A stretch of 40,034 nt of DNA, taken from a virus. Positions within the stretch are counted from its first letter, which is position 1, and every line of letters begins with the position of its first letter. The stretch is from the UHGV virus genome UHGV-0388909. One strand, written 5' to 3'. Made by a program: the position numbers and the translations under genes. The notes beneath the pieces are model-generated. The model ran no database searches, was not told where the DNA came from, and saw only the letters and a list, made by a program, of their open reading frames with translations. Of the stretch, positions 1 through 40,034 are shown piece by piece.

Positions 1-102
1 GCTAACTCCTGCTGTTTATAATATGTCTGGATTACCGCACTATCATAAGCAGGAGTTAGCAAAAGAGAGGCAACTGATTCAGCCAAAGCCGTTTACAGCT
101 GA
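1..102. repeat. Terminal repeat block: 1-55 is the reverse complement of 39938-39992; 49-102 is a direct copy of 39981-40034
   Basis: Direct string comparison of window start and end. Confidence 0.9.
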
Positions 103-520
103 GCTTCCACCTGGAGTGTCAACGCGTCCGGCATATCATGGAAGATTCCCTGGTGATGACATATCGTCTCAGTCATCTAAAAAAGCACCTCAGGCAGTAT
201 CAGAGCCAGCAAGAATACCTTCTGTATCGCCGCCAAAAGAAGAATCAGCTAACAGAGTTTCAAGTGGCCGCAAGCAGTGTTTGCGATGCAGAATAAACCT
301 TCCATATGACAAATTCCGGAAATCGTCAAAAAATCCAGATGGATTGACTAAGTGGTGTGCAAGGTGCCTCGATGGCCCAAAGAATACACGCCATATGAAG
401 TGGTGCCCAATTTGTAATGTCCGCAGAAAACGGACCAGCTTTTACCCTAATAATCAAAATGCGGACGGCTTAATGGCATGGTGCAAAACGTGCTGGGACG
501 AGCACAAAGCGAAACGATAG
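23..520 (+). CDS. C-terminal part of a Cys-rich protein with tandem CxxC...WCxxC zinc-ribbon-like repeats; probably continues from 39724-40034 across the circular junction
   Basis: ORF track; residues from position 49 onward are encoded by the same sequence as the end of the window; the annotated N-terminus (23-48) lies in the inverted duplicate and is probably artefactual. Confidence 0.5.
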   Translation: MSGLPHYHKQELAKERQLIQPKPFTAELPPGVSTRPAYHGRFPGDDISSQSSKKAPQAVSEPARIPSVSPPKEESANRVSSGRKQCLRCRINLPYDKFRKSSKNPDGLTKWCARCLDGPKNTRHMKWCPICNVRRKRTSFYPNNQNADGLMAWCKTCWDEHKAKR

Positions 521-542
521 GCCGCTCTTGCGGCCTTTAAAT

Positions 543-800
543 TTACCGGGTTTGTTTTCGTAATTGTTCGGCACAATAGTCGAGATGTGTTTGCAGATCC
601 TGCATAGACATCTGTGAGCTGGTGACGTAGTTAATCAGTGCAGTCAGTTCGGCAAGTGGGCCATCGACATTAAATCCATCCTTATCGAGATCCCGGAGTA
701 ATTTCATCAAGTGCGATCCCTCCACCAGTGACCTGACGCCTCCCGGCGTGTGAATCCTTTCGGTAAATCCGTCTTCCAGTGGATAGTGATACTGCTGCAT
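543..800 (-). CDS. Small SOS-regulated protein (85 aa); candidate antirepressor or induction trigger
   Basis: ATG at 800 preceded by GGAGAA; the longer ORF to 923 would run through the LexA box and promoter; no family recognised. Confidence 0.5.
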   Translation of the reverse strand: MQQYHYPLEDGFTERIHTPGGVRSLVEGSHLMKLLRDLDKDGFNVDGPLAELTALINYVTSSQMSMQDLQTHLDYCAEQLRKQTR

Positions 801-819
801 CTTATCTTCTCCATGCAAT

Positions 820-839
820 AACTGTATGTTTATACAGTA
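820..839. promoter_or_regulatory. LexA (SOS) box, CTGT-N8-ACAG
   Basis: TAACTGTATGTTTATACAGTAA about 20 bp upstream of the ATG at 800; strong match to the E. coli LexA consensus. Confidence 0.75.
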
Positions 840-876
840 ACAAATAATTTGTTTGCTATCCAGCACGTTTTGCAAA

Positions 877-891
877 TTACCCGAAAGGTAA
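877..891. promoter_or_regulatory. TTACC-N5-GGTAA palindrome (TTACCCGAAAGGTAA) in the divergent promoter region between the SOS gene and the tailspike
   Basis: Exact member of the genome-wide palindrome family. Confidence 0.6.
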
Positions 892-995
892 TATCTATTG
901 GTATTTATAGTCTTTTTATCCATATATGGTTTTTCAGGTAATAGAATAACCAGATATGCGGCGCAACGGGTGCTGCGACTATCTGGAGATTTAAC

Positions 996-3900
996 ATGAC
1001 GGTCTCAACCGAAGTTGACCACAACGAATACACCGGTAACGGCGTTACGACATCGTTTCCGTATACTTTTCGAATTTTCAGAAAATCAGACCTGGTTGTT
1101 CAGGTGTCTGACCTGAACGGGAACGTAACAGAATTGGTCCTGGATACTGGTTATACGGTAACTGGGGCGGGCACTTATAGTGGCGGTTCTGTGGTTCTTC
1201 CGTCTCCGCTTGCTACTGGATGGCGAATTACGATAGATCGTGTGCTTGATGTAGTGCAGGACACAGACCTTCGCAATCAGGGAAAATTTTTCCCCGAAGT
1301 GCATGAAGATGCCTTTGACTACCTGACGATGCTGATCCAGCAATGTTTTGGGTGGTTCAGACGTGCATTGATGAAACCATCTTTGCTTGCAAAATATTAC
1401 GATGCAAAGCAAAACAAAATTTCTAACCTTGCAGATCCATCATTTGAGCAGGACGCTGTAAATAATCGCTCAATGCGTAATTATGTCGATGCTGCAATCG
1501 CCGGAGTTGTTGGTGGTTTTGGTTGGTTTATTCAGTATGGTTCTGGGGCTGTGTACCGAACGTTCCAGGATAAAATGCGTGATGCTATTAGCCCCAAAGA
1601 TTTTGGAGCTGTTGGTGATGGTATAAATGACGACTCCACTGCAATAAGCGCGTGCCTTGAAGCCTCATCTCCAGGTTATAAAATTGACGGATTAGGGCTT
1701 ACTTTTAAAGTATCAACTCTTCCGGATGTCAGTCGATTTAAAAATGCTCGTTTTTTATTTGAGAGAATACCGGGCCAGCCTCTTTTTTATGCTTCTGAAG
1801 ATTTTATCCAGGGAGAGTTATTTAAAATTACAGATACACCGTGGTACAACGCCTGGACGCAGGATAAAACGTTTGTATATGACAATGTCATCTATGCGCC
1901 TTTTATGGCTGGAGACCGCCATGGTGTAAATAACCTCCATGTTGCATGGGTTCGCTCAGGAGATGACGGGAAGACCTGGACAACGCCGGAATGGCTTACA
2001 GATTTACATGAAAACTATCCCACAGTTAACTATCACTGCATGAGTATGGGGGTTGTCAGAAATCGCCTTTTTGCTGTAATTGAGACGCGGACCGTGAGAG
2101 GAAATAAACTGCAGGTTGCAGAGTTGTGGGATCGCCCAATGAGTCGCAGCCTTCGCGTTTATGGTGGTATAACGAAAGCAGCAAATCAGCAAGTCGCTTA
2201 TATTCGCATTACTGATCACGGATTATTTGCTGGTGATTTTGTCAACTTCTCAAACTCTGGTGTTACAGGTGTTACCGGGAATATGACGGTGACTACTGTT
2301 ATTGATAAAAATACTTTTACAGTTACGACGCAAAATACTCAGGATGTGGATCAGAATAACGAGGGTAGATACTGGAGTTTTGGCACATCATTTCACTCGT
2401 CACCATGGAGAAAAACCAGTCTTGGAACTATTCCTTCTTTTGTTGACGGAAGCACTCCTGTTACTGAGATTCACAGTTTTGCGACGATTAACGATAACAG
2501 TTTTGCTGTTGGCTACCATAATGGTGATATTGGTCCACGCGAGCTTGGGATACTCTATTTCTCTGATGCTTTCGGTTCTCCTGGTAGCTTTGTTCGCAGA
2601 CGCATACCTGCAGAATATGAGGCGAATGCATCTGAGCCATGTGTAAAATATTATGATGGCATTCTGTATCTGACGACCAGGGGGACATTAAGTACTCGAC
2701 CCGGTAGTTCATTGCACAGAAGCTCTGATTTAGGTACATCATGGAATTCTCTTCGCTTCCCAAATAATGTTCATCACTCAAACCTTCCTTTTGCCAAAGT
2801 TGGCGATGAGCTGATTATTTTTGGCAGTGAGCGCGCATTTGGTGAGTGGGAAGGAGGAGAACCTGATAACCGTTATGCAGGAAATTATCCAAGAACATTT
2901 ATGACCAGAGTTAACGTCAATGAGTGGAGTCTGGATAATGTAGAGTGGGTTAATGTTACTGATCAGATTTATCAGGGCGGAATAGTTAACTCTGCGGTTG
3001 GTGTTGGTTCAGTTTGTATCAAAGACAACTGGCTGTACTACATTTTCGGTGGGGAAGATTTTCTAAACCCATGGAGCATAGGGGATAACAACAGAAAATA
3101 TCCTTATGTTCACGATGGTCACCCGGCTGATTTGTATTGTTTCAGGGTGAAAATTAAACAGGAAGAATTTGTTTCAAGGGATTTTGTCTACGGAGCCACT
3201 CCTAACAGAACGCTTCCTACTTTTATGTCGACGTCAGGCGTGAGGACGGTTCCTGTACCCGTTGATTTCACAGATGATGTTGCCGTCCAGTCACTGACTG
3301 TCCATGCAGGTACATCAGGACAAGTTCGCGCGGAAGTCAAACTTGAGGGTAATTACGCCATTATTGCGAAGAAAGTACCGTCTGATGATGTTACCGCTCA
3401 GAGATTAATCGTTAGCGGCGGTGAAACAACGTCTTCAGCAGATGGTGCAATGATAACGTTGCATGGTTCCAGAAGCAGTACTCCACGTCGCGCGGTATAT
3501 AACGCACTCGAACATCTTTTTGAGAACGGAGATGTTAAACCTTATCTTGATAATGTAAATGCTCTTGGTGGTCCGGGAAACAGGTTCTCGACAGTTTATC
3601 TTGGCTCCAATCCTGTGGTTACCAGTGACGGAACATTAAAGACAGAGCCGGTCTCTCCTGACGAAGCATTGCTGGATGCCTGGGGTGACGTCAGGTATAT
3701 CGCTTATAAATGGCTGAACGCTGTCGCTATAAAGGGGGAAGAAGGGGCGAGGATACATCATGGTGTAATCGCGCAGCAACTTCGTGATGTTCTTATTTCT
3801 CACGGACTCATGGAAGAAGAAAGCACAACATGCCGCTATGCCTTTCTTTGCTATGACGATTATCCCGCAGTATATGATGACGTCATTACTGGCCAAAGGG

Positions 3901-4115
3901 AAATGCCGCTGACTGATAATGACGGGAGCATCATTGTTGATGAGGATGATAATCCAGTGATGGTAATAGAAGACATCATTGAGCGCGTTGAAATAACGCC
4001 AGCAGGATCTAGATGGGGGGTCAGACCTGATCTCTTATTCTATATCGAGGCAGCATGGCAGCGCAGAGAAATGGATAAGATAAAAGAGCGGGTTCAGTCT
4101 CTGGAAGAACGTTAA
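996..4115 (+). CDS. Tailspike/tail fibre: N-terminal anchor domain, central sialidase-like depolymerase, C-terminal intramolecular chaperone (peptidase S74-like)
   Basis: Two Asp-box motifs (SGDDGKTW, SSDLGTSW); beta-helix-type motif DFGAVGDGINDD; C-terminal ...VTSDGTLK...HHGVIAQQL... typical of self-cleaving chaperone domains. Confidence 0.75.
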   Translation: MTVSTEVDHNEYTGNGVTTSFPYTFRIFRKSDLVVQVSDLNGNVTELVLDTGYTVTGAGTYSGGSVVLPSPLATGWRITIDRVLDVVQDTDLRNQGKFFPEVHEDAFDYLTMLIQQCFGWFRRALMKPSLLAKYYDAKQNKISNLADPSFEQDAVNNRSMRNYVDAAIAGVVGGFGWFIQYGSGAVYRTFQDKMRDAISPKDFGAVGDGINDDSTAISACLEASSPGYKIDGLGLTFKVSTLPDVSRFKNARFLFERIPGQPLFYASEDFIQGELFKITDTPWYNAWTQDKTFVYDNVIYAPFMAGDRHGVNNLHVAWVRSGDDGKTWTTPEWLTDLHENYPTVNYHCMSMGVVRNRLFAVIETRTVRGNKLQVAELWDRPMSRSLRVYGGITKAANQQVAYIRITDHGLFAGDFVNFSNSGVTGVTGNMTVTTVIDKNTFTVTTQNTQDVDQNNEGRYWSFGTSFHSSPWRKTSLGTIPSFVDGSTPVTEIHSFATINDNSFAVGYHNGDIGPRELGILYFSDAFGSPGSFVRRRIPAEYEANASEPCVKYYDGILYLTTRGTLSTRPGSSLHRSSDLGTSWNSLRFPNNVHHSNLPFAKVGDELIIFGSERAFGEWEGGEPDNRYAGNYPRTFMTRVNVNEWSLDNVEWVNVTDQIYQGGIVNSAVGVGSVCIKDNWLYYIFGGEDFLNPWSIGDNNRKYPYVHDGHPADLYCFRVKIKQEEFVSRDFVYGATPNRTLPTFMSTSGVRTVPVPVDFTDDVAVQSLTVHAGTSGQVRAEVKLEGNYAIIAKKVPSDDVTAQRLIVSGGETTSSADGAMITLHGSRSSTPRRAVYNALEHLFENGDVKPYLDNVNALGGPGNRFSTVYLGSNPVVTSDGTLKTEPVSPDEALLDAWGDVRYIAYKWLNAVAIKGEEGARIHHGVIAQQLRDVLISHGLMEEESTTCRYAFLCYDDYPAVYDDVITGQREMPLTDNDGSIIVDEDDNPVMVIEDIIERVEITPAGSRWGVRPDLLFYIEAAWQRREMDKIKERVQSLEER

Positions 4116-4121
4116 AAAAAA

Positions 4122-4141
4122 GCCCGCAAAATATTGCGGGT
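4122..4141. terminator. GC hairpin after the tailspike gene, flanked by A8 upstream and an A-rich run downstream
   Basis: Stem cccgcaa/ttgcggg; better oriented as a minus-strand terminator (U8 on that strand). Confidence 0.4.
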
Positions 4142-4421
4142 ATCAAAAACGGAGTTGGTGAAAAGTTATCTTTGAATTCTATCATGAATCAGTACGTATT
4201 TTAAATACATGTTCAGGTTTATTACACCATAGCATTATTAAATACAAAATTAAGTCTATGGTTCCTGTACAACTGCCCCCACTCTGCTGGCTCGTTCTGT
4301 AAAATCATTAGTACTTTTATTGAGATATATGATATGGAACAATAATGATTCATATATGGTTTACTATGCGGGTTTAGTCATCAATAATTGACTGGCTTAT
4401 AGATAGTAAACAGGAGAAAGT

Positions 4422-4826
4422 ATGTCTGCTCAAGTAACAAGTGAGCAATTAAATCAGTTGCTTAGTTTTGGTTCTCTTGCTGCAGTTATTGCAGGTGTCC
4501 CTCCGGAGGTTGCTTTAGGGGCTTTGGCTGGGGCGGTAATTTTTGTTACCTCTGCAGTAGAGTACCCCATCCGTCGCCGGGTGCTCCTGTCGATGCTCAG
4601 CTTTCTTTGCGGCCTTCTCTTTTACAAACCAGCAGCATCAATTCTTATCGGCATAGCCAGCCTGATCCCTACCATCACGCAGGACTCTTTTGAAAAAGGG
4701 ATTGTTTTCTCTGCAGGCGCATTCGTGTCAGCAATTGTCGCTGTGCGTATTGGTATATGGCTCTATCACCGTTCCGATAATCCACGCGAGTTAATTCCGG
4801 GGAGAAAAGACGATGGTAACGCATGA
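4422..4826 (+). CDS. Holin-like membrane protein (multiple predicted TM segments)
   Basis: Hydrophobic segments; immediately upstream of the endolysin; good Shine-Dalgarno. Confidence 0.55.
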   Translation: MSAQVTSEQLNQLLSFGSLAAVIAGVPPEVALGALAGAVIFVTSAVEYPIRRRVLLSMLSFLCGLLFYKPAASILIGIASLIPTITQDSFEKGIVFSAGAFVSAIVAVRIGIWLYHRSDNPRELIPGRKDDGNA

Positions 4827-6239: not shown

Positions 6240-6510
6240 TGATTTCCGGTGACGGTATATAAAACGGTACGGGAAAAATTGAGATTTGGAAAAATGTTAT
6301 CACTCAATTGGTTATGGTTATCGTAAATAATTGAGTGGGAATGATTAACAGCTAACTCATAGCAACTCATTCCTATTCAGATACTAATTTAACCCTCTGT
6401 TTTTACAGAGGGTTTTTGTTTTTATGTATTCATTTCTATTCACTCTACACCATATTTTTCGTCGGTACAGGTGACGGTATTACCTTAAAGGTATACTCTC
6501 ATACCGTCAT
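6240..6510. other. Candidate attP region with repeated arm-like sequences
   Basis: Non-coding stretch between the lysis genes and int; GGTGACGGTAT at 6249-6259 and 6470-6480, inverted partner ATACCGTC at 6501-6508, degenerate TTACC palindrome at 6480-6494. Confidence 0.35.
6393..6423 (+). terminator. Rho-independent terminator after the lysis cassette
   Basis: Stem ccctctg/cagaggg followed by TTTTTGTTTTT. Confidence 0.75.
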
Positions 6511-6536: not shown

Positions 6537-7793
6537 GTGCTTACCGATACAAAATTAAAAAACCTCAAGCCGCAGGACAAACTGTACAAGGTCTCCGATC
6601 GTGACGGGCTGTATGTAGCTGTGCTTACGTCAGGCACGGTCTCGTTTCGCTATGACTACCGTATCAACGGTCGCCGCGAAACACTGGTAATCGGGCAGTA
6701 TGGGCGTGACGGTATCAGCCTGGCAGAAGCGCGAGAAGAACTGATTGCTGCAAAGAAGCTGCTTAAAGCAGGCCAGTCACCGGCTGCGGCTAAACGTGAC
6801 GGTATTAAAAAGATTCGTGGTGCCGAGACGTTTGCGGTACATACCGACAGTTATATGAAACACGTCATCCTGGCTGACAGTACCCGCGCAATGAAGCAGG
6901 CGGTGATCGACCGTGACATACTTCCGGTTCTTGGCAACAAAATGATGGCTGAAATTACCACATCAATGGTTCGTGATTTGTGTGACCGGATTGTCGAACG
7001 CGGTGGTCGGGCAACAGCAGTACAGGCCAGGGAGATCATCAGCAGCGTATACCGTCACGCCAATGACCGTGGTCATGGTTTGTTTAATCCTGCGGCTGAC
7101 ATTAAACCTTCGTCTATCGCCATATTTAAACCACGAGAGCGAACACTGACACCAGAAGAAATTGGCCTGTTCTTCCGCACGCTGGATGCCATTGGTGCTA
7201 TGGGCACTATGAAAATGGCTTTAAAGCTGGTGCTTATCACCATGGTTCGTAAGGGAGAATTCACCAATGCAACGTGGGATGAAATAGATTTTAAAAAATG
7301 GACATGGACAATTCCTTCAGACCGCATGAAGGGAAGTCGGGCGCACGTTATTTACCTGCCTAAACAGGCACAGGATATATTAGTCGGGTTGCAGATGTGC
7401 GCTGGTGGAAGTGAATATCTGGTTCCTGGTCGTTACAATTTCCGGAAGCCATTATCTAATGCCGCGCTGAACTCTCTGATCGACAGAACGGTGAAAATAA
7501 TAAATGAAGATGGTGAGCATATTCAGGATTTTACTGTACATGATATGCGCCGTACAGCCAGTACATTGTTGCATGAGGCTGGTTATCCTTCAGACTGGAT
7601 TGAAAAGGCTCTGGCACACGAGCAGAAAGGTGTGCGCGCCGTATATAACAAAGCGGAATACGCCAGACAGCGCGCCTACATGTTGCAGCAGTGGGCCGAT
7701 ATGATTGATTCCTGGATTAACGGGGAGCATACGGATCTGATTCCGTTCTCCCCGTCGAAGTTTGAGAAGTGGATGGAAGACAGTAATAAATAA
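6537..7793 (+). CDS. int: Tyrosine site-specific integrase
   Basis: GTG start; N-terminal arm-binding-type region; C-terminal HDMRRT...Y catalytic signature. Confidence 0.85.
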   Translation: MLTDTKLKNLKPQDKLYKVSDRDGLYVAVLTSGTVSFRYDYRINGRRETLVIGQYGRDGISLAEAREELIAAKKLLKAGQSPAAAKRDGIKKIRGAETFAVHTDSYMKHVILADSTRAMKQAVIDRDILPVLGNKMMAEITTSMVRDLCDRIVERGGRATAVQAREIISSVYRHANDRGHGLFNPAADIKPSSIAIFKPRERTLTPEEIGLFFRTLDAIGAMGTMKMALKLVLITMVRKGEFTNATWDEIDFKKWTWTIPSDRMKGSRAHVIYLPKQAQDILVGLQMCAGGSEYLVPGRYNFRKPLSNAALNSLIDRTVKIINEDGEHIQDFTVHDMRRTASTLLHEAGYPSDWIEKALAHEQKGVRAVYNKAEYARQRAYMLQQWADMIDSWINGEHTDLIPFSPSKFEKWMEDSNK

Positions 7794-13500: not shown

Positions 13501-14334
13501 ATGAGCAGACATGCAACAGATTGGGCCTGGGAGACAGATCCAGGTAGCTCATCATTAAAGCTCATACTGCTCTCGATGGCTGACAGAGCCGATGAATATA
13601 ACCTCTGCTACCCCAGCATAGAACGCCTCGTTAAAGACACTTGCCTGAATAAAAAAACCGTGCAGGCCGGGCTTATATCGCTCATGAAAATGGGGCTTAT
13701 TTCAGATACCGGAGAGAGAAAGGGAGCGACAAAAAGAGTGCGGGTTTTCTCTCTTAATATAACCAAAAACGGGAACATTAAAGGCAACCGGGAGGGGGGC
13801 AATGATCCCGAAAACGGTAATGTTACCGAAAACGGGAATATACCCAAAAACGGGATGTTGAATGATCCCAAAAACGGGATGTTGAATGATCCCAAAAACG
13901 GGATCCAGAACCAGTCATATAACCAGTCATTTAACCAAGAGAGGGAGAGCAGGACAAAAACCGGGGATTCTGTGCCTCATGACCCCGTCGCAAACAACGC
14001 CGTGATGAATAACTTTGTTCCTCCTGGTGGGCCAGGGCAATTAGGTAAATTTGTCATGCATGAACAATGGCAGCCATCAGATGACTTTCTTCGGAAAAGC
14101 TCATTGCAGGGAATCTACCTGGACAGTCTGCCAACGGCACAGGAACTTGCAGAGTTCAGAATTTACTGGATGGCTGAGGGTAAGGCATACCATCAGGCAC
14201 AGTGGGAGCAGAAGCTGGCAAGGCGCATCCAGTTCTGTAGACAGAAATCAGGTGAAGTCAGAAAGAGCCTTGACTGGCATAACACTGACTGGATAGATGA
14301 GGTGTGGGATGAAATCAACTCCAGAACTTCTTAA
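13501..14334 (+). CDS. Replication initiator (lambda O-like organisation) with internal iterons
   Basis: N-terminal HTH-like domain; central low-complexity region encoded by iterons; position after cro. Confidence 0.6.
   Translation: MSRHATDWAWETDPGSSSLKLILLSMADRADEYNLCYPSIERLVKDTCLNKKTVQAGLISLMKMGLISDTGERKGATKRVRVFSLNITKNGNIKGNREGGNDPENGNVTENGNIPKNGMLNDPKNGMLNDPKNGIQNQSYNQSFNQERESRTKTGDSVPHDPVANNAVMNNFVPPGGPGQLGKFVMHEQWQPSDDFLRKSSLQGIYLDSLPTAQELAEFRIYWMAEGKAYHQAQWEQKLARRIQFCRQKSGEVRKSLDWHNTDWIDEVWDEINSRTS
13763..13906 (+). repeat. Iterons: about six copies of CC(C/G)AAAACGGGA(A/T), last three at 24-25 bp spacing; candidate replication origin
   Basis: Direct repeats including exact 24-bp duplication cccaaaaacgggatgttgaatgat. 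Confidence 0.7.
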
Positions 14335-20994: not shown

Positions 20995-21071
20995 TGGCGT
21001 GGCATGCAGGATTCGAACCTGCGACCAACCGCTTAGAAGGCGGTTGCTCTGTCCAACTGAGCTAATGCCAC
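20995..21071 (-). tRNA. tRNA-Arg, anticodon UCU
   Basis: Minus-strand 77 nt GTGGCATTAGCTCAGTTGGACAGAGCAACCGCCTTCTAAGCGGTTGGTCGCAGGTTCGAATCCTGCATGCCACGCCA folds as a cloverleaf with encoded CCA. Confidence 0.85.
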
Positions 21072-37659: not shown

Positions 37660-38172
37660 CTATGCAGGCTTTTTGGATTTGTACGAATAATCCCACGGAT
37701 AAACATTTCTACTAAGTGGAGCTGTATTCGTTCGTTCATGAAATAATTTTGTGAAATTCAATACGGAATCCATCCAAACTTTTGCGTTAGCTTTGGTGTG
37801 TGCGGGCGGGTCCCAATAAGCTAGTAAGGCTGCATCTCTTATTTCATTGACTGCATATATGAGATATGCGTTACTGGTTGGTTTTGGCCTGTAATTTCCT
37901 TGTTCATCAATCAATCCATATGACCACTCATCCCAACACTGTTCAGTACATGAGTATGAATATGATGCATATTCACCAATATTGACATGAACCTTTCTGA
38001 GATGGAAGCCTAATACTTCCTCTGGTCTTTCAAAAAGAGTATCTTTTCCCAGATCAGGATGATGACCATGACGCCAGTGTTGTTTAAAAGCATCTTTTAG
38101 CGAAATCAGAAAGTCATCAGTTTTAAACTCACCAGTAGGTATAACCTTCCCGCTATACTCACTCAAAAACAT
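37660..38172 (-). CDS. YafO-like toxin candidate
   Basis: Recalled resemblance to E. coli YafO blocks; overlaps the upstream gene. Confidence 0.4.
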   Translation of the reverse strand: MFLSEYSGKVIPTGEFKTDDFLISLKDAFKQHWRHGHHPDLGKDTLFERPEEVLGFHLRKVHVNIGEYASYSYSCTEQCWDEWSYGLIDEQGNYRPKPTSNAYLIYAVNEIRDAALLAYWDPPAHTKANAKVWMDSVLNFTKLFHERTNTAPLSRNVYPWDYSYKSKKPA

Positions 38173-38615: not shown

Positions 38616-39326
38616 TCAGAAGAACCCTGCCTTGTCGTTGATGTACTCCGCGTGCGTCTGGATATCACGCAGGCATTTGCTCACACCAACGATGTAGCAG
38701 AACATGGTGGTCAGCTCCGCCGCCGCGCCCGATACGTCGTGCCCGTCTTCCTGTAACTGGTTCAGCAAATTCATCAGCAGTGAGTTCTCCGTCAGGCCGA
38801 GAACACCAGACGGCGAATGAATCAGGCTACGGTAGCCGGGCTTCAGTGGGGCGCTGTAGGTTTTGTTCTCTATCTTCATCGCCTGCATTACTGCTGACGC
38901 CGTGGCGTTGGCTACCTGGTCGGCAACCATCTTTATGCGTTCTTCCTGCGGGAGCGAGTTTTTAATGTAGCTTCCGGTGCGGCGGATCTGAGGAAGAACC
39001 TCACCTGTAACCCATTTACGAAAGCGGTAGGGGATAGTGCCTGGTGTCACTGCGTCGCGGCAGCGGAGGATCAGTGTGTAGAGGCCTGACTCGGAGATGA
39101 TGTTGATCTCTTTTACTCGGCTGTCAAAAATTGCACGATGTTCATGCCCTATGTTGAACATAGACCTTTCATCATCATCCAGTTTTTCAAGTGCTTGGGT
39201 GACGTTTTGGATACGCAGCGCACTACAAACGTCTTGGGCTACAAACCATGGTTGGCCATCGATAATGATGGAACGGATAGGGTTAACAGATTCAAATTTG
39301 AAGATGGAAGTTTGAGCATTAGCCAT
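38616..39326 (-). CDS. Antirepressor with Bro-N domain
   Basis: N-terminal ...IIIDGQPWFVAQDVCSALRI... typical of Bro-N/antirepressor proteins; ATG at 39326 with GGAG; the ORF-track start at 39341 is GTG inside the RBS. Confidence 0.7.
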   Translation of the reverse strand: MANAQTSIFKFESVNPIRSIIIDGQPWFVAQDVCSALRIQNVTQALEKLDDDERSMFNIGHEHRAIFDSRVKEINIISESGLYTLILRCRDAVTPGTIPYRFRKWVTGEVLPQIRRTGSYIKNSLPQEERIKMVADQVANATASAVMQAMKIENKTYSAPLKPGYRSLIHSPSGVLGLTENSLLMNLLNQLQEDGHDVSGAAAELTTMFCYIVGVSKCLRDIQTHAEYINDKAGFF

Positions 39327-39341
39327 GGTGGTTATCTCCAC

Positions 39342-39723: not shown

Positions 39724-40034
39724 ATGGAAGTTTTCTGGATAGTTGTTGGTGTGGTTGCGGTGATTATTTACGTTATCAACCAGAACAAGACTAAGATCTC
39801 TGATCGTACGGTCGTTAATCAGAACAAAACGATAAAGACCGAAGATGGGGAGGTAACGATTAGTCGTACACAGGTGATAGAACACACATCTACTCAGTTT
39901 CAAAAAACTGGAGGTAACGCGCCTGATATTTCCGTACCTCCTGCTTATGATAGTGCGGTAATCCAGACATATTATAAACAGCAGGAGTTAGCAAAAGAGA
40001 GGCAACTGATTCAGCCAAAGCCGTTTACAGCTGA
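39724..40034 (+). CDS. N-terminal part (TM anchor plus linker) of the Cys-rich protein continuing at 103-520
   Basis: ATG at 39724 with GAGGA upstream; hydrophobic N-terminus; reading frame continues through the terminal overlap into ORF 23-520. Confidence 0.5.
   Translation, partial: MEVFWIVVGVVAVIIYVINQNKTKISDRTVVNQNKTIKTEDGEVTISRTQVIEHTSTQFQKTGGNAPDISVPPAYDSAVIQTYYKQQELAKERQLIQPKPFTA

What the first reader, a model, noticed from the sequence alone, without database searches (positions are those of the whole stretch)
996..4115. Tailspike with sialidase Asp boxes and a self-cleaving C-terminal chaperone: predicted polysialic-acid (K1-type) capsule depolymerase
The 1039-aa protein has an N-terminal virion-anchor region, two S-x-D-x-G-x-T-W Asp boxes typical of sialidase beta-propellers, and a C-terminal segment with the hallmarks of an intramolecular chaperone that cleaves at ...TS|DGTLK. 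This combination is characteristic of phage endosialidases. Finding it on a temperate integrase-bearing podovirus-like genome implies tailspike module exchange and predicts a polysialic-acid-capsulated host.
Basis: partly seen in the sequence, partly recalled or inferred. Interest (0 to 1): 0.55.

Follow-up and report, generated by a model that had tools for sequence, protein, structure and literature searches.

The report
Known K1-capsule endosialidase tailspike gene
This gene encodes a phage tailspike that cuts the polysialic-acid (K1) capsule of E. coli and then sheds its own folding chaperone; the same protein in the same kind of temperate phage has already been published, so it is real but ordinary.

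Summary
The ORF at 996-4115 (+, 1039 aa) is real. By every test run here it is an endosialidase tailspike with a self-cleaving C-terminal chaperone. Pfam finds all four endosialidase domains (propeller E = 9e-233) plus Peptidase_S74. Residues 205-876 align end to end with the endoNF crystal structures, and every catalytic and autoproteolytic residue checked is conserved.

- The second Asp box is SSDLGTSW, with S in place of T.
- By homology, cleavage falls one residue earlier, at T876|S877 (…NPVVT|SDGTLK).
- The released fragment is 163 aa and 18.6 kDa, not about 17 kDa.

The window is the circular form of a Uetakevirus (epsilon15/phiV10-like temperate podovirus). It is 97.6% identical in nucleotides to phage vB_EcoP_ZX5. 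ZX5 ORF7 is 99.4% identical in amino acids, was described in 2022 with this same three-part architecture, and ZX5 was isolated on an O87:H52:K1 host.

The gene is a mosaic. A Uetakevirus anchor (aa 1-192) and a divergent joint (aa 193-233) are followed by a 2.4-kb cassette that is 99.3% nucleotide-identical to the biochemically characterised CUS-3 endosialidase. The cassette occurs in 181 of 5,426 complete E. coli genomes, and at least 7 carry both prophage types.

Verdict: already known, low interest.

The parts
996..4115 (+). Endosialidase tailspike precursor gene: 1039 codons plus stop, 115.8 kDa precursor
   Evidence: ORF list. Pfam domains. 99.4% aa identity to ZX5 QTH80017.1 with 6 substitutions. 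100% nt identity to E. coli SY033 WP_497225267.1. Mass.
996..1571 (+). N-terminal virion-anchor module (aa 1-192): beta-sandwich plus coiled-coil neck of the Uetakevirus type
   Evidence: aa 1-209 match aa 1-214 of the solved tailspike Dpo31 (28lx/8ck1) at E = 3e-35. Dpo31 domain D1 sits at the virion base in cryo-EM (PMC13317679). The module starts at or near profile position 1 of more than 20 PHROG tail fibre/spike families of differing lengths. nt 1-582 are 98% identical to the phiv142-3 tail fibre, with 91.6% aa identity over aa 1-227.
1572..1693 (+). Divergent joint (aa 193-233), covering the linker and the first half of the endosialidase N-terminal extension
   Evidence: Only 41.5% aa identity to CUS-3, 34% to endoNF and 46% to endoN92 over this stretch. 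Alignments. At DNA level it is found only in ZX5 and two Phi05 fragments in the phage collection.
1694..4086 (+). Exchanged cassette (gene nt 699-3091; aa 234-1030), near-identical to the CUS-3 endosialidase siaK1
   Evidence: Megablast gives 99.3% nt identity to CP000711 siaK1, and 99.2-99.4% to phiv205-1 and 720R6. aa identity to CUS-3 is 97-99% in the N-terminal extension, propeller and stalk. Present in 181 of 5,426 complete E. coli genomes.
1608..1808 (+). Endosialidase N-terminal extension domain (aa 205-271)
   Evidence: Pfam PF12218, E = 6e-32.
1809..3158 (+). Six-bladed catalytic beta-propeller (aa 272-721) carrying H309, R515, E547, R562 and R613
   Evidence: Pfam PF12217, E = 8.7e-233, full profile 1-367. 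70.7% identity to endoNF. endoNF H350, R549, E581, R596 and R647 are all conserved. Their roles are taken from PMC12632334.
1956..1979 (+). Asp box 1, SGDDGKTW (aa 321-328)
   Evidence: Regex match. Aligned with SGDDGQTW of endoNF.
2142..2390 (+). Beta-barrel domain inserted in the propeller (aa 383-465), a polysialic-acid binding site in endoNF
   Evidence: Pfam PF12195, E = 3.2e-46, profile 1-83/83. The binding-site role is taken from PMC12632334.
2721..2744 (+). Asp box 2, SSDLGTSW (aa 576-583), a variant with S at position 7
   Evidence: Regex match. Aligned with SRDIGQTW of endoNF.
3159..3623 (+). Stalk (aa 722-876; the triple-beta-helix stalk of endoNF), ending at T876, the predicted C-terminus of the mature spike
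   Evidence: Pfam PF12219, E = 4.5e-78. The crystal chains of endoNF end at the residue aligned with T876. R863 corresponds to endoNF R897, which is needed for autocleavage.
3624..4112 (+). C-terminal intramolecular chaperone domain (aa 877-1039; 163 aa, 18.6 kDa) with the S877/K882 dyad; released by cleavage of the T876-S877 bond
   Evidence: Pfam PF13884 Peptidase_S74 at aa 877-937, E = 1.7e-10. PDB 3gw6 (endoNF stalk plus chaperone) matches aa 757-1038 at E = 1.9e-93. S911 aligns with S877 and K916 with K882. Cleavage position from PMC3828593 and GenBank mat_peptide features. Mass.
4123..4140 (.). GC-rich stem-loop 8 nt after the stop codon; scores as an intrinsic terminator only on the minus strand
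   Evidence: Terminator scan. Sequence shown.

Best explanation
The gene encodes the receptor-destroying tailspike of a temperate epsilon15/phiV10-like podovirus (genus Uetakevirus) that infects K1-encapsulated E. coli.

Proposed mechanism:
1. The 115.8-kDa precursor trimerises with the help of its C-terminal intramolecular chaperone domain (aa 877-1039).
2. Once the triple-beta-helix stalk is folded, the S877/K882 dyad, helped by R863, cuts the T876-S877 bond. This releases an 18.6-kDa fragment and leaves a stable 97-kDa mature spike.
3. The N-terminal beta-sandwich and coiled-coil module (aa 1-192) fixes the spike to the tail.
4. The six-bladed beta-propeller (aa 272-721; H309, R515, E547, R562, R613) cleaves alpha-2,8-polysialic acid. 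The inserted beta-barrel and the stalk provide further polysialic-acid binding sites. Together they let the virion tunnel through the capsule to the outer membrane.

The gene is a recombinant. A lineage-specific anchor is fused to a catalytic-plus-chaperone cassette shared at more than 99% nucleotide identity with the P22-like prophage CUS-3.

Shown here: the domain architecture, residue conservation, mosaic boundaries, phage type, and the published K1 serotype of the ZX5 isolation host. Inferred by homology: enzymatic activity, trimerisation, the exact scissile bond, and the number and placement of spikes on the virion.
For: - Pfam PF12218, PF12217, PF12195, PF12219 and PF13884 are all far above their gathering scores and in the canonical order.
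- PDB: endoNF 1v0e/3gvl at E = 0 over aa 205-876; endoN92 (4hiz) at 4e-271; the endoNF chaperone complex 3gw6 at 2e-93 over aa 757-1038.
- Conserved residues, endoNF to window: H350-H309, R549-R515, E581-E547, R596-R562, R647-R613, Q330, D331, H527, S528, K585, N699, R866, D994, R897-R863, T910-T876, S911-S877, K916-K882. Their roles are taken from PMC12632334, PMC8326128 and PMC3828593.
- The cassette is 99.3% nt identical to CUS-3 siaK1, whose GenBank record cites endo-alpha-sialidase activity by direct assay (PMID 16689790; also listed in PMC5380687).
- The whole window is 97.6% identical to ZX5 (Uetakevirus) over 84% of 24.9 kb. An integrase and an exact attP core are present.
- ZX5 forms plaques on, and lysogenises, an O87:H52:K1 strain, and its ORF7 was described with the same three domains.
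- The N-terminal module matches Dpo31 D1+D2 at E = 3e-35, and D1 contacts the virion.
Against: - No enzyme assay exists for this exact protein or for ZX5 ORF7; activity is inferred from 99% identity to CUS-3 and about 70% identity to endoNF.
- endoNF K410, once proposed as a gateway residue, is G369 here and in CUS-3. It is, however, dispensable in phage-based deep mutational scanning.
- N912 of endoNF is D878 here. D is also found in CUS-3 and endoN92, both of which are annotated as processed.
- Pfam does not recognise the N-terminal module above threshold (Phage_T7_tail 16.1 bits against a cut-off of 25.2). Its anchor role therefore rests on the PDB and PHROG matches and on modular logic.
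Confidence: 0.95

Rival explanations
1. The spike has a broader or shifted polysialic-acid specificity rather than plain K1. Candidates are the K92 polymer with alternating alpha-2,8/alpha-2,9 linkages, or O-acetylated K1.
For: The phi92 endosialidase is annotated as degrading both K1 and K92 polymers. It is 66% identical to this protein in the propeller. The stalk and barrel binding sites are the less conserved parts (stalk 56% to endoNF, 48% to endoN92). Deep mutational scanning shows that these regions tune specificity.
Against: The cassette is 99.3% identical to the CUS-3 enzyme, which comes from the O18:K1 strain RS218. The host of ZX5 is typed as K1. Strains carrying the gene include ones labelled K1, such as O1:K1:H7 APEC E18006, and ones I know as K1 (APEC O1, IAI39: my own knowledge, not tested here). 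Activity on K1 is very likely; extra substrates are simply untested.
Confidence: 0.1
2. The gene is a catalytically dead or decaying prophage remnant. It may bind polysialic acid but no longer supports infection.
For: Most copies sit in bacterial chromosomes as prophages. Some copies are split by IS3 insertions (NZ_AP045810.1, NZ_CP101741.1).
Against: - The ORF is intact and every functional residue checked is conserved.
- The window is the excised circular form with an intact attP and a full set of phage genes.
- ZX5 differs by 6 residues and is a viable plaque-forming phage.
- The first 25 full-length copies listed are 99.5-100% nt identical (72 genomes hold a full-length copy).
Confidence: 0.03
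3. The Asp boxes and the TSDGTLK motif are chance matches, and the protein is a tail fibre of unrelated specificity.
For: Short motifs read by eye can occur by chance.
Against: Only 29 of 20,000 shuffles give even one Asp-box-like match. The motifs lie in full-length, high-identity alignments to solved endosialidase structures.
Confidence: 0.01

Closest known systems
Escherichia phage vB_EcoP_ZX5 ORF7 (QTH80017.1; MW722083; Li et al., Pathogens 2022, PMC9782041)
   Same: Same length of 1039 aa, 99.4% aa and 99.6% nt identity, with 6 substitutions (D89E, N499S, R568Q, R826G, I991M, V1033I). Same Uetakevirus backbone, same attP core, and the gene sits immediately upstream of the lysis cassette and integrase in both. 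The paper already describes an N-terminal tail-fibre domain, an endosialidase middle part and an endosialidase chaperone C-terminus, and a K1 host.
   Different: The backbone is 97.6% identical over only 84% of the 24.9 kb compared, so some accessory genes differ. The window also carries a 243-aa ORF upstream (across the contig junction) that was not found in the first 25.7 kb of ZX5. The paper did not assay the enzyme or map the mosaic boundaries.
CUS-3 endosialidase tailspike siaK1 (ABQ88383.1; P22-like prophage of E. coli RS218; Stummeyer et al. 2006, PMID 16689790)
   Same: Gene nt 699-3091 (aa 234-1030) are 99.3% nt identical. This covers the N-terminal extension, propeller, barrel, stalk and nearly all of the chaperone, and the cleavage motif VVTSDGTLK is identical. 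Both are temperate podoviruses resident in K1 strains.
   Different: The N-terminus of CUS-3 is the P22 gp9-type head-binding domain (MTDITANV...), unrelated to aa 1-192 here. aa 193-233 are only 41% identical, and the last 9 residues and the 3' flank differ. In CUS-3 the gene is followed by neuO with its heptanucleotide repeats. No such tandem repeat exists in the window, where the lysis genes follow instead.
Endosialidase NF of phage K1F (gp17; PDB 1v0e, 3gvl, 3gw6; glycoside hydrolase family GH58, the family name being from my own knowledge)
   Same: Same domain order. Identity is 70.7% in the propeller, 56% in the stalk and 54% in the chaperone. All catalytic and autocleavage residues are conserved and the two Asp boxes are at aligned positions.
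   Different: The K1F N-terminus is the T7 gp17-type adaptor of a lytic Autographiviridae phage. endoNF K410 is G369 here and N912 is D878. The window protein has a 7-residue insertion (FVDGSTP, aa 481-487) relative to endoNF.
Tailspike Dpo31 of the marine podovirus Carin-1 (PDB 28lx/8ck1; PMC13317679)
   Same: The N-terminal domains D1 (beta-sandwich, virion attachment) and D2 (coiled coil) match aa 1-209 at E = 3e-35. Dpo31 also sheds an 18-kDa C-terminal chaperone domain, D4.
   Different: The central catalytic domain is unrelated, and it has a different host and substrate.

Membership tests
Phage endosialidases (endo-N-acetylneuraminidase, Pfam End_* domains; GH58) | Six-bladed catalytic beta-propeller of the endosialidase type, matched over its full length | tested here: met
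   PF12217 at 772 bits (cut-off 24), profile 1-367/367, aa 272-721. Gap-poor alignment to 1v0e/3gvl.
Phage endosialidases (endo-N-acetylneuraminidase, Pfam End_* domains; GH58) | Beta-barrel domain inserted in the propeller, the N-terminal extension and the stalk domain, in canonical order | tested here: met
   PF12218 at aa 205-271, PF12195 at aa 383-465 and PF12219 at aa 722-876, all above their cut-offs.
Phage endosialidases (endo-N-acetylneuraminidase, Pfam End_* domains; GH58) | Catalytic and substrate-binding residues of endoNF (H350, R549, E581, R596, R647) | tested here: met
   H309, R515, E547, R562 and R613 are conserved in the MAFFT alignment with endoNF, CUS-3 and endoN92. The residue list is from PMC12632334.
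Phage endosialidases (endo-N-acetylneuraminidase, Pfam End_* domains; GH58) | Two Asp boxes in the propeller | tested here: met
   SGDDGKTW at aa 321-328 and SSDLGTSW at aa 576-583, aligned with those of endoNF. The second has S for T at position 7.
Phage endosialidases (endo-N-acetylneuraminidase, Pfam End_* domains; GH58) | [quoted passage not shown] | not testable with these tools
   Inferred from 99.3% nt identity to CUS-3 siaK1, which is annotated with direct-assay evidence, and from the K1 host of ZX5.
[quoted passage not shown] | Ser-Lys dyad with the S-x4-K spacing at the start of the domain (endoNF S911/K916), plus the stalk arginine (R897) | tested here: met
   S877, K882 and R863 align with S911, K916 and R897. 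PF13884 at 41.4 bits (cut-off 22), aa 877-937. 3gw6 matches at E = 2e-93.
[quoted passage not shown] | Autoproteolytic release of the domain after trimer folding | not testable with these tools
   Predicted cut at T876|S877, by analogy with endoNF (cleavage N-terminal of S911) and endoN92.
Uetakevirus (epsilon15/phiV10-like temperate podoviruses), as the carrier of the gene | Genome-wide nucleotide similarity and synteny with members of the genus, with the shared integrase and attP | tested here: met
   97.6% identity to ZX5, 97.3% to phiv142-3 and 96.3% to phiV10 over 45-84% of 24.9 kb. Exact attP core ATTGAGTGGGAATGATT at 6330-6346, 190 nt before int.
Uetakevirus-type tailspike N-terminal anchor | Conserved N-terminal module shared by tailspikes whose C-terminal parts differ | tested here: met
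   98% nt identity over nt 1-582 to the phiv142-3 tail fibre, whose remainder is unrelated. The module starts at or near profile position 1 in more than 20 PHROG tail families. It matches D1+D2 of Dpo31. Physical attachment to the tail was not tested.

The most novel reading that the evidence does not exclude
The endosialidase cassette is kept nearly identical (over 99% nt) between two unrelated temperate podovirus lineages, P22-like CUS-3 and epsilon15-like Uetakevirus. The proposed cause is ongoing recombination or gene conversion between prophages that co-reside in the same K1 chromosomes. At least 7 complete genomes carry both. The divergent joint at aa 193-233 and the distinct last 9 codons would then be relics of an older, independent fusion. 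If so, K1 extraintestinal E. coli would act as a mixing vessel in which receptor-binding modules are homogenised across phage genera.
Probability: 0.35. Interest if true: 0.3.

Novelty: already known. Interest (0 to 1): 0.1.

Why it matters
Endosialidases are the textbook capsule depolymerases. They are used as polysialic-acid probes and are proposed as therapeutics against neonatal-meningitis E. coli K1. Their C-terminal chaperone is the prototype for autocleaving domains such as the one in the myelin regulator MYRF.

This copy adds nothing new in kind. The same protein on the same phage type was published for ZX5, and its catalytic cassette is the CUS-3 enzyme.

Its modest value is as a clean, precisely bounded example of receptor-binding-module exchange between two temperate podovirus genera. 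It is also a reminder that about 3% of complete E. coli genomes carry such a prophage spike, which can serve as a marker of a K1-type capsule.

Tried and rejected
- Pfam on the N-terminal 200 aa alone at E up to 10 returned only a sub-threshold Phage_T7_tail hit (16.1 against 25.2 bits). The 'T7-like' label used in the ZX5 paper is therefore not supported at Pfam's own threshold. PDB and PHROG matches were used instead.
- I looked for the origin of the divergent joint (window 1560-1700) and of the 3' end plus downstream spacer (4080-4440) in the phage collection with sensitive blastn. Only ZX5 and two Phi05 fragments matched, so no donor was identified.
- I looked for a neuO-like phase-variable heptanucleotide repeat, which follows the gene in CUS-3. 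No such tandem repeat exists in the window.
- The promoter and terminator scan of 500-4500 gave nothing convincing for the gene's own promoter. The only notable site is the stem-loop just after the stop codon.
- A literature search for 'Ser911' found nothing, and PMC2666599 is not held. The cleavage position was taken from PMC3828593 and from the GenBank mat_peptide features.
- I did not run structure prediction, the large protein-database searches or metagenome scans. Crystal structures at about 70% identity and a 99.4%-identical published protein made them unnecessary.
- I did not directly verify the presence of the neu/kps K1 biosynthesis genes in the lysogen genomes, because no query sequence was at hand. 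K1 status rests on strain labels and the ZX5 paper.
- The overlapping small ORFs inside the gene in other frames (for example 2302-2646 + and 2488-2781 -) were treated as frame noise. Nothing supports them.
Full report
**Observation**

The ORF exists exactly as stated. It runs from the ATG at 996 to the stop at 4113-4115 on the + strand and has 1039 codons. A GGAG lies about 9 nt upstream of the start. The other ORFs listed inside it are short, out-of-frame readings with no support.

A regular-expression search finds two Asp-box motifs:
- SGDDGKTW at aa 321-328, an exact fit to S-x-D-x-G-x-T-W.
- SSDLGTSW at aa 576-583, with S instead of T at position 7.

Only 29 of 20,000 shuffles of the protein produce even one such match. 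Both motifs align with the Asp boxes of endosialidase NF. The motif TSDGTLK is at aa 876-882.

**What it is**

Pfam finds the complete endosialidase architecture in canonical order, with every domain far above its gathering score:

| Domain | Residues | E-value |
|---|---|---|
| End_N_terminal | 205-271 | 6e-32 |
| End_beta_propel | 272-721 | 8.7e-233 (full profile) |
| End_beta_barrel | 383-465 | 3.2e-46 |
| End_tail_spike | 722-876 | 4.5e-78 |
| Peptidase_S74 | 877-937 | 1.7e-10 |

Against solved structures:
- aa 205-876 align end to end with endoNF of phage K1F (1v0e, 3gvl; E = 0).
- The same region matches the phi92 endosialidase (4hiz) at 4e-271.
- aa 757-1038 match the endoNF stalk-chaperone complex 3gw6 at 2e-93.

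I aligned the protein with endoNF, the CUS-3 endosialidase and endoN92. The following residues are all conserved:
- Catalytic and substrate-binding residues intolerant to substitution in K1F (PMC12632334): H350, R549, E581, R596 and R647 correspond to H309, R515, E547, R562 and R613.
- Second-shell residues Q330, D331, H527, S528, K585 and N699.
- The R866/D994 pair.

The one difference is endoNF K410, which is G369 here and in CUS-3. That position was dispensable in phage-based scanning.

**Chaperone and cleavage**

The autoproteolytic machinery is intact. S877 and K882 align with the S911/K916 dyad. R863 aligns with R897, which is needed for cleavage in endoNF (PMC8326128).

Three lines of evidence place it one residue earlier:
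- In endoNF the bond cut is immediately N-terminal of S911 (PMC3828593).
- The K1F and phi92 GenBank records start the chaperone mat_peptide at that serine.
- The crystallised mature endoNF ends at the threonine aligned with T876.

The predicted cut is therefore …NPVVT876|S877DGTLK…. This gives a 97-kDa mature chain and a 163-aa, 18.6-kDa fragment from a 115.8-kDa precursor.

**N-terminal module**

aa 1-209 match the first 214 residues of the solved podovirus tailspike Dpo31 at E = 3e-35. In Dpo31, D1 is a beta-sandwich located at the base of the virion in cryo-EM, and D2 is a coiled coil (PMC13317679).

The same module begins at or near profile position 1 of more than twenty PHROG tail fibre/spike families of different lengths. 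That is the signature of a conserved anchor carrying interchangeable receptor-binding parts.

Pfam's Phage_T7_tail scores only 16.1 bits against a cut-off of 25.2. The 'T7-like' label in the ZX5 paper is therefore weak.

**Genomic context**

The window is a Uetakevirus (epsilon15/phiV10-like temperate podovirus). Over window 4116-29000:

| Phage | nt identity | Coverage |
|---|---|---|
| vB_EcoP_ZX5 | 97.6% | 84% |
| phiv142-3 | 97.3% | 78% |
| phiV10 | 96.3% | 45% |

The spike gene is followed by two holin-like genes, a GH19 endolysin, a DUF2514 protein and a tyrosine integrase at 6537-7793. The published attP core ATTGAGTGGGAATGATT lies at 6330-6346.

The sequence is the excised, circular form. 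The last 55 nt repeat window 48-102, giving a unit length of about 39,932 bp. The first 47 nt are an inverted fold-back of the sequence just before that repeat, which is most simply an assembly artefact.

**Mosaic structure**

| Segment | Residues / gene nt | Relationship |
|---|---|---|
| Anchor | aa 1-192; nt 1-582 | 98% nt identical to the phiv142-3 (Uetakevirus) tail fibre, whose remainder is unrelated |
| Cassette | nt 699-3091; window 1694-4086; aa 234-1030 | 99.3% nt identical to CUS-3 siaK1, the spike of a P22-like Lederbergvirus; 99.2-99.4% to phiv205-1 and 720R6 |
| Joint | aa 193-233 | Only 41% aa identical to CUS-3 |
| 3' end | Last 9 codons plus spacer up to the holin gene | Differs from CUS-3 |

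The joint and the 3' spacer are found only in ZX5 and two Phi05 fragments in the phage collection.

**Distribution and host**

- The full-length gene is present in 72 of 5,426 complete E. coli genomes, including APEC O1, IAI39, APEC O18 and a cerebrospinal-fluid isolate. It is 100% identical in isolate SY033, where it lies in a prophage next to yfgI.
- The cassette alone is present in 181 genomes. The remaining cassette genomes listed carry it as an annotated 'phage tailspike protein', as in CUS-3.
- At least seven chromosomes carry both spike types at separate loci: EC69, APEC O18, AREA_486, OZ546925, OZ546911, N21 and MS20659. That gives a plausible setting for recombination between co-resident prophages. 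I did not test this further.
- ZX5 was isolated on an O87:H52:K1 strain. The CUS-3 record cites direct-assay evidence for endo-alpha-sialidase activity (also PMC5380687).

**Comparison with the known, and novelty**

The protein meets every sequence-testable criterion for the endosialidase family and for the S74 chaperone domain. Only the biochemical criteria could not be tested.

It is not new. ZX5 ORF7 is 99.4% identical, differing by 6 substitutions. It was described in 2022 as an N-terminal tail-fibre domain plus an endosialidase plus an endosialidase chaperone, on a temperate Uetakevirus with a K1 host (PMC9782041). The exchange of endosialidase modules between phage lineages has been a textbook example since the CUS-3 and K1F comparison (PMC5380687).

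This analysis adds exact mosaic boundaries, a corrected cleavage bond and fragment size, a residue-by-residue functional check, prevalence figures, and the co-residence observation.

**Verdict**

The feature is already known. Interest is low (0.1).

The most novel reading still open is ongoing gene conversion of the cassette between co-resident CUS-3-like and Uetakevirus prophages. I give that a probability of about 0.35, and it would be of modest interest if true.

Noticed in passing
window 1-102 and 39933-40034: The window wraps a circular genome of about 39,932 bp. Bases 39980-40034 equal 48-102 exactly. Bases 1-47 are the reverse complement of 39933-39979, a fold-back at the contig start that is most simply an assembly artefact.
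   Followed up: yes
window 39724-40034 joined to 103-520 (+): ORF 23-520 (165 aa) is a truncated reading caused by the fold-back. The real ORF is 243 aa and spans the junction. It is 729/729 nt identical to hypothetical protein WP_021518473.1 of E. coli SY033. It has an N-terminal hydrophobic segment and a Cys-rich C-terminus, with a weak sub-threshold Stc1 hit. It was not found in the first 25.7 kb of ZX5. Function unknown.
   Followed up: partly
window 6330-6346 (+), with integrase at 6537-7793: Exact copy of the attP core ATTGAGTGGGAATGATT published for ZX5, phiV10 and epsilon15, which integrate at the 3' end of guaA. It lies 190 nt upstream of the tyrosine integrase gene.
   Followed up: yes
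E. coli chromosomes NZ_CM128670.1, NZ_CP006830.1, NZ_CP123346.1, NZ_OZ546925.1, NZ_OZ546911.1, NZ_CM165899.1, NZ_CP082073.1: Each carries both the Uetakevirus-type and the CUS-3-type endosialidase tailspike gene at separate loci. K1 strains can therefore be doubly lysogenic for two endosialidase phages. This gives an opportunity for recombination between the near-identical cassettes.
   Followed up: partly
NZ_AP045810.1 3431589-3436021 and NZ_CP101741.1 539161-542866: In these two genomes the endosialidase gene is split by an IS3-family transposase insertion, which is inactivation of the prophage spike.
   Followed up: no
window 13801-13937: Cluster of short tandem repeats, including a perfect 24-nt unit repeated 2.6 times (13843-13904) and 18-nt and 12-nt units. 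It lies inside ORF 13501-14334, which corresponds to the 'primosomal protein I' gene of ZX5. It looks like replication-origin iterons.
   Followed up: no
window 20995-21071 (-): A tRNA-Arg (anticodon TCT) gene lies between the terminase and portal regions, on the strand opposite to the structural genes.
   Followed up: no
window 37660-38172 (-) and 38616-39341 (-): The region upstream of the spike gene, on the opposite strand, encodes a BRO-N domain protein of the anti-repressor type and a 170-aa protein with a weak, sub-threshold YafO-toxin match. This accessory region is where the window differs most from ZX5.
   Followed up: no
window 2436-2456 (aa 481-487): There is a seven-residue insertion (FVDGSTP) relative to endoNF, in a loop after the beta-barrel domain. 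Its significance for substrate binding is unknown.
   Followed up: no
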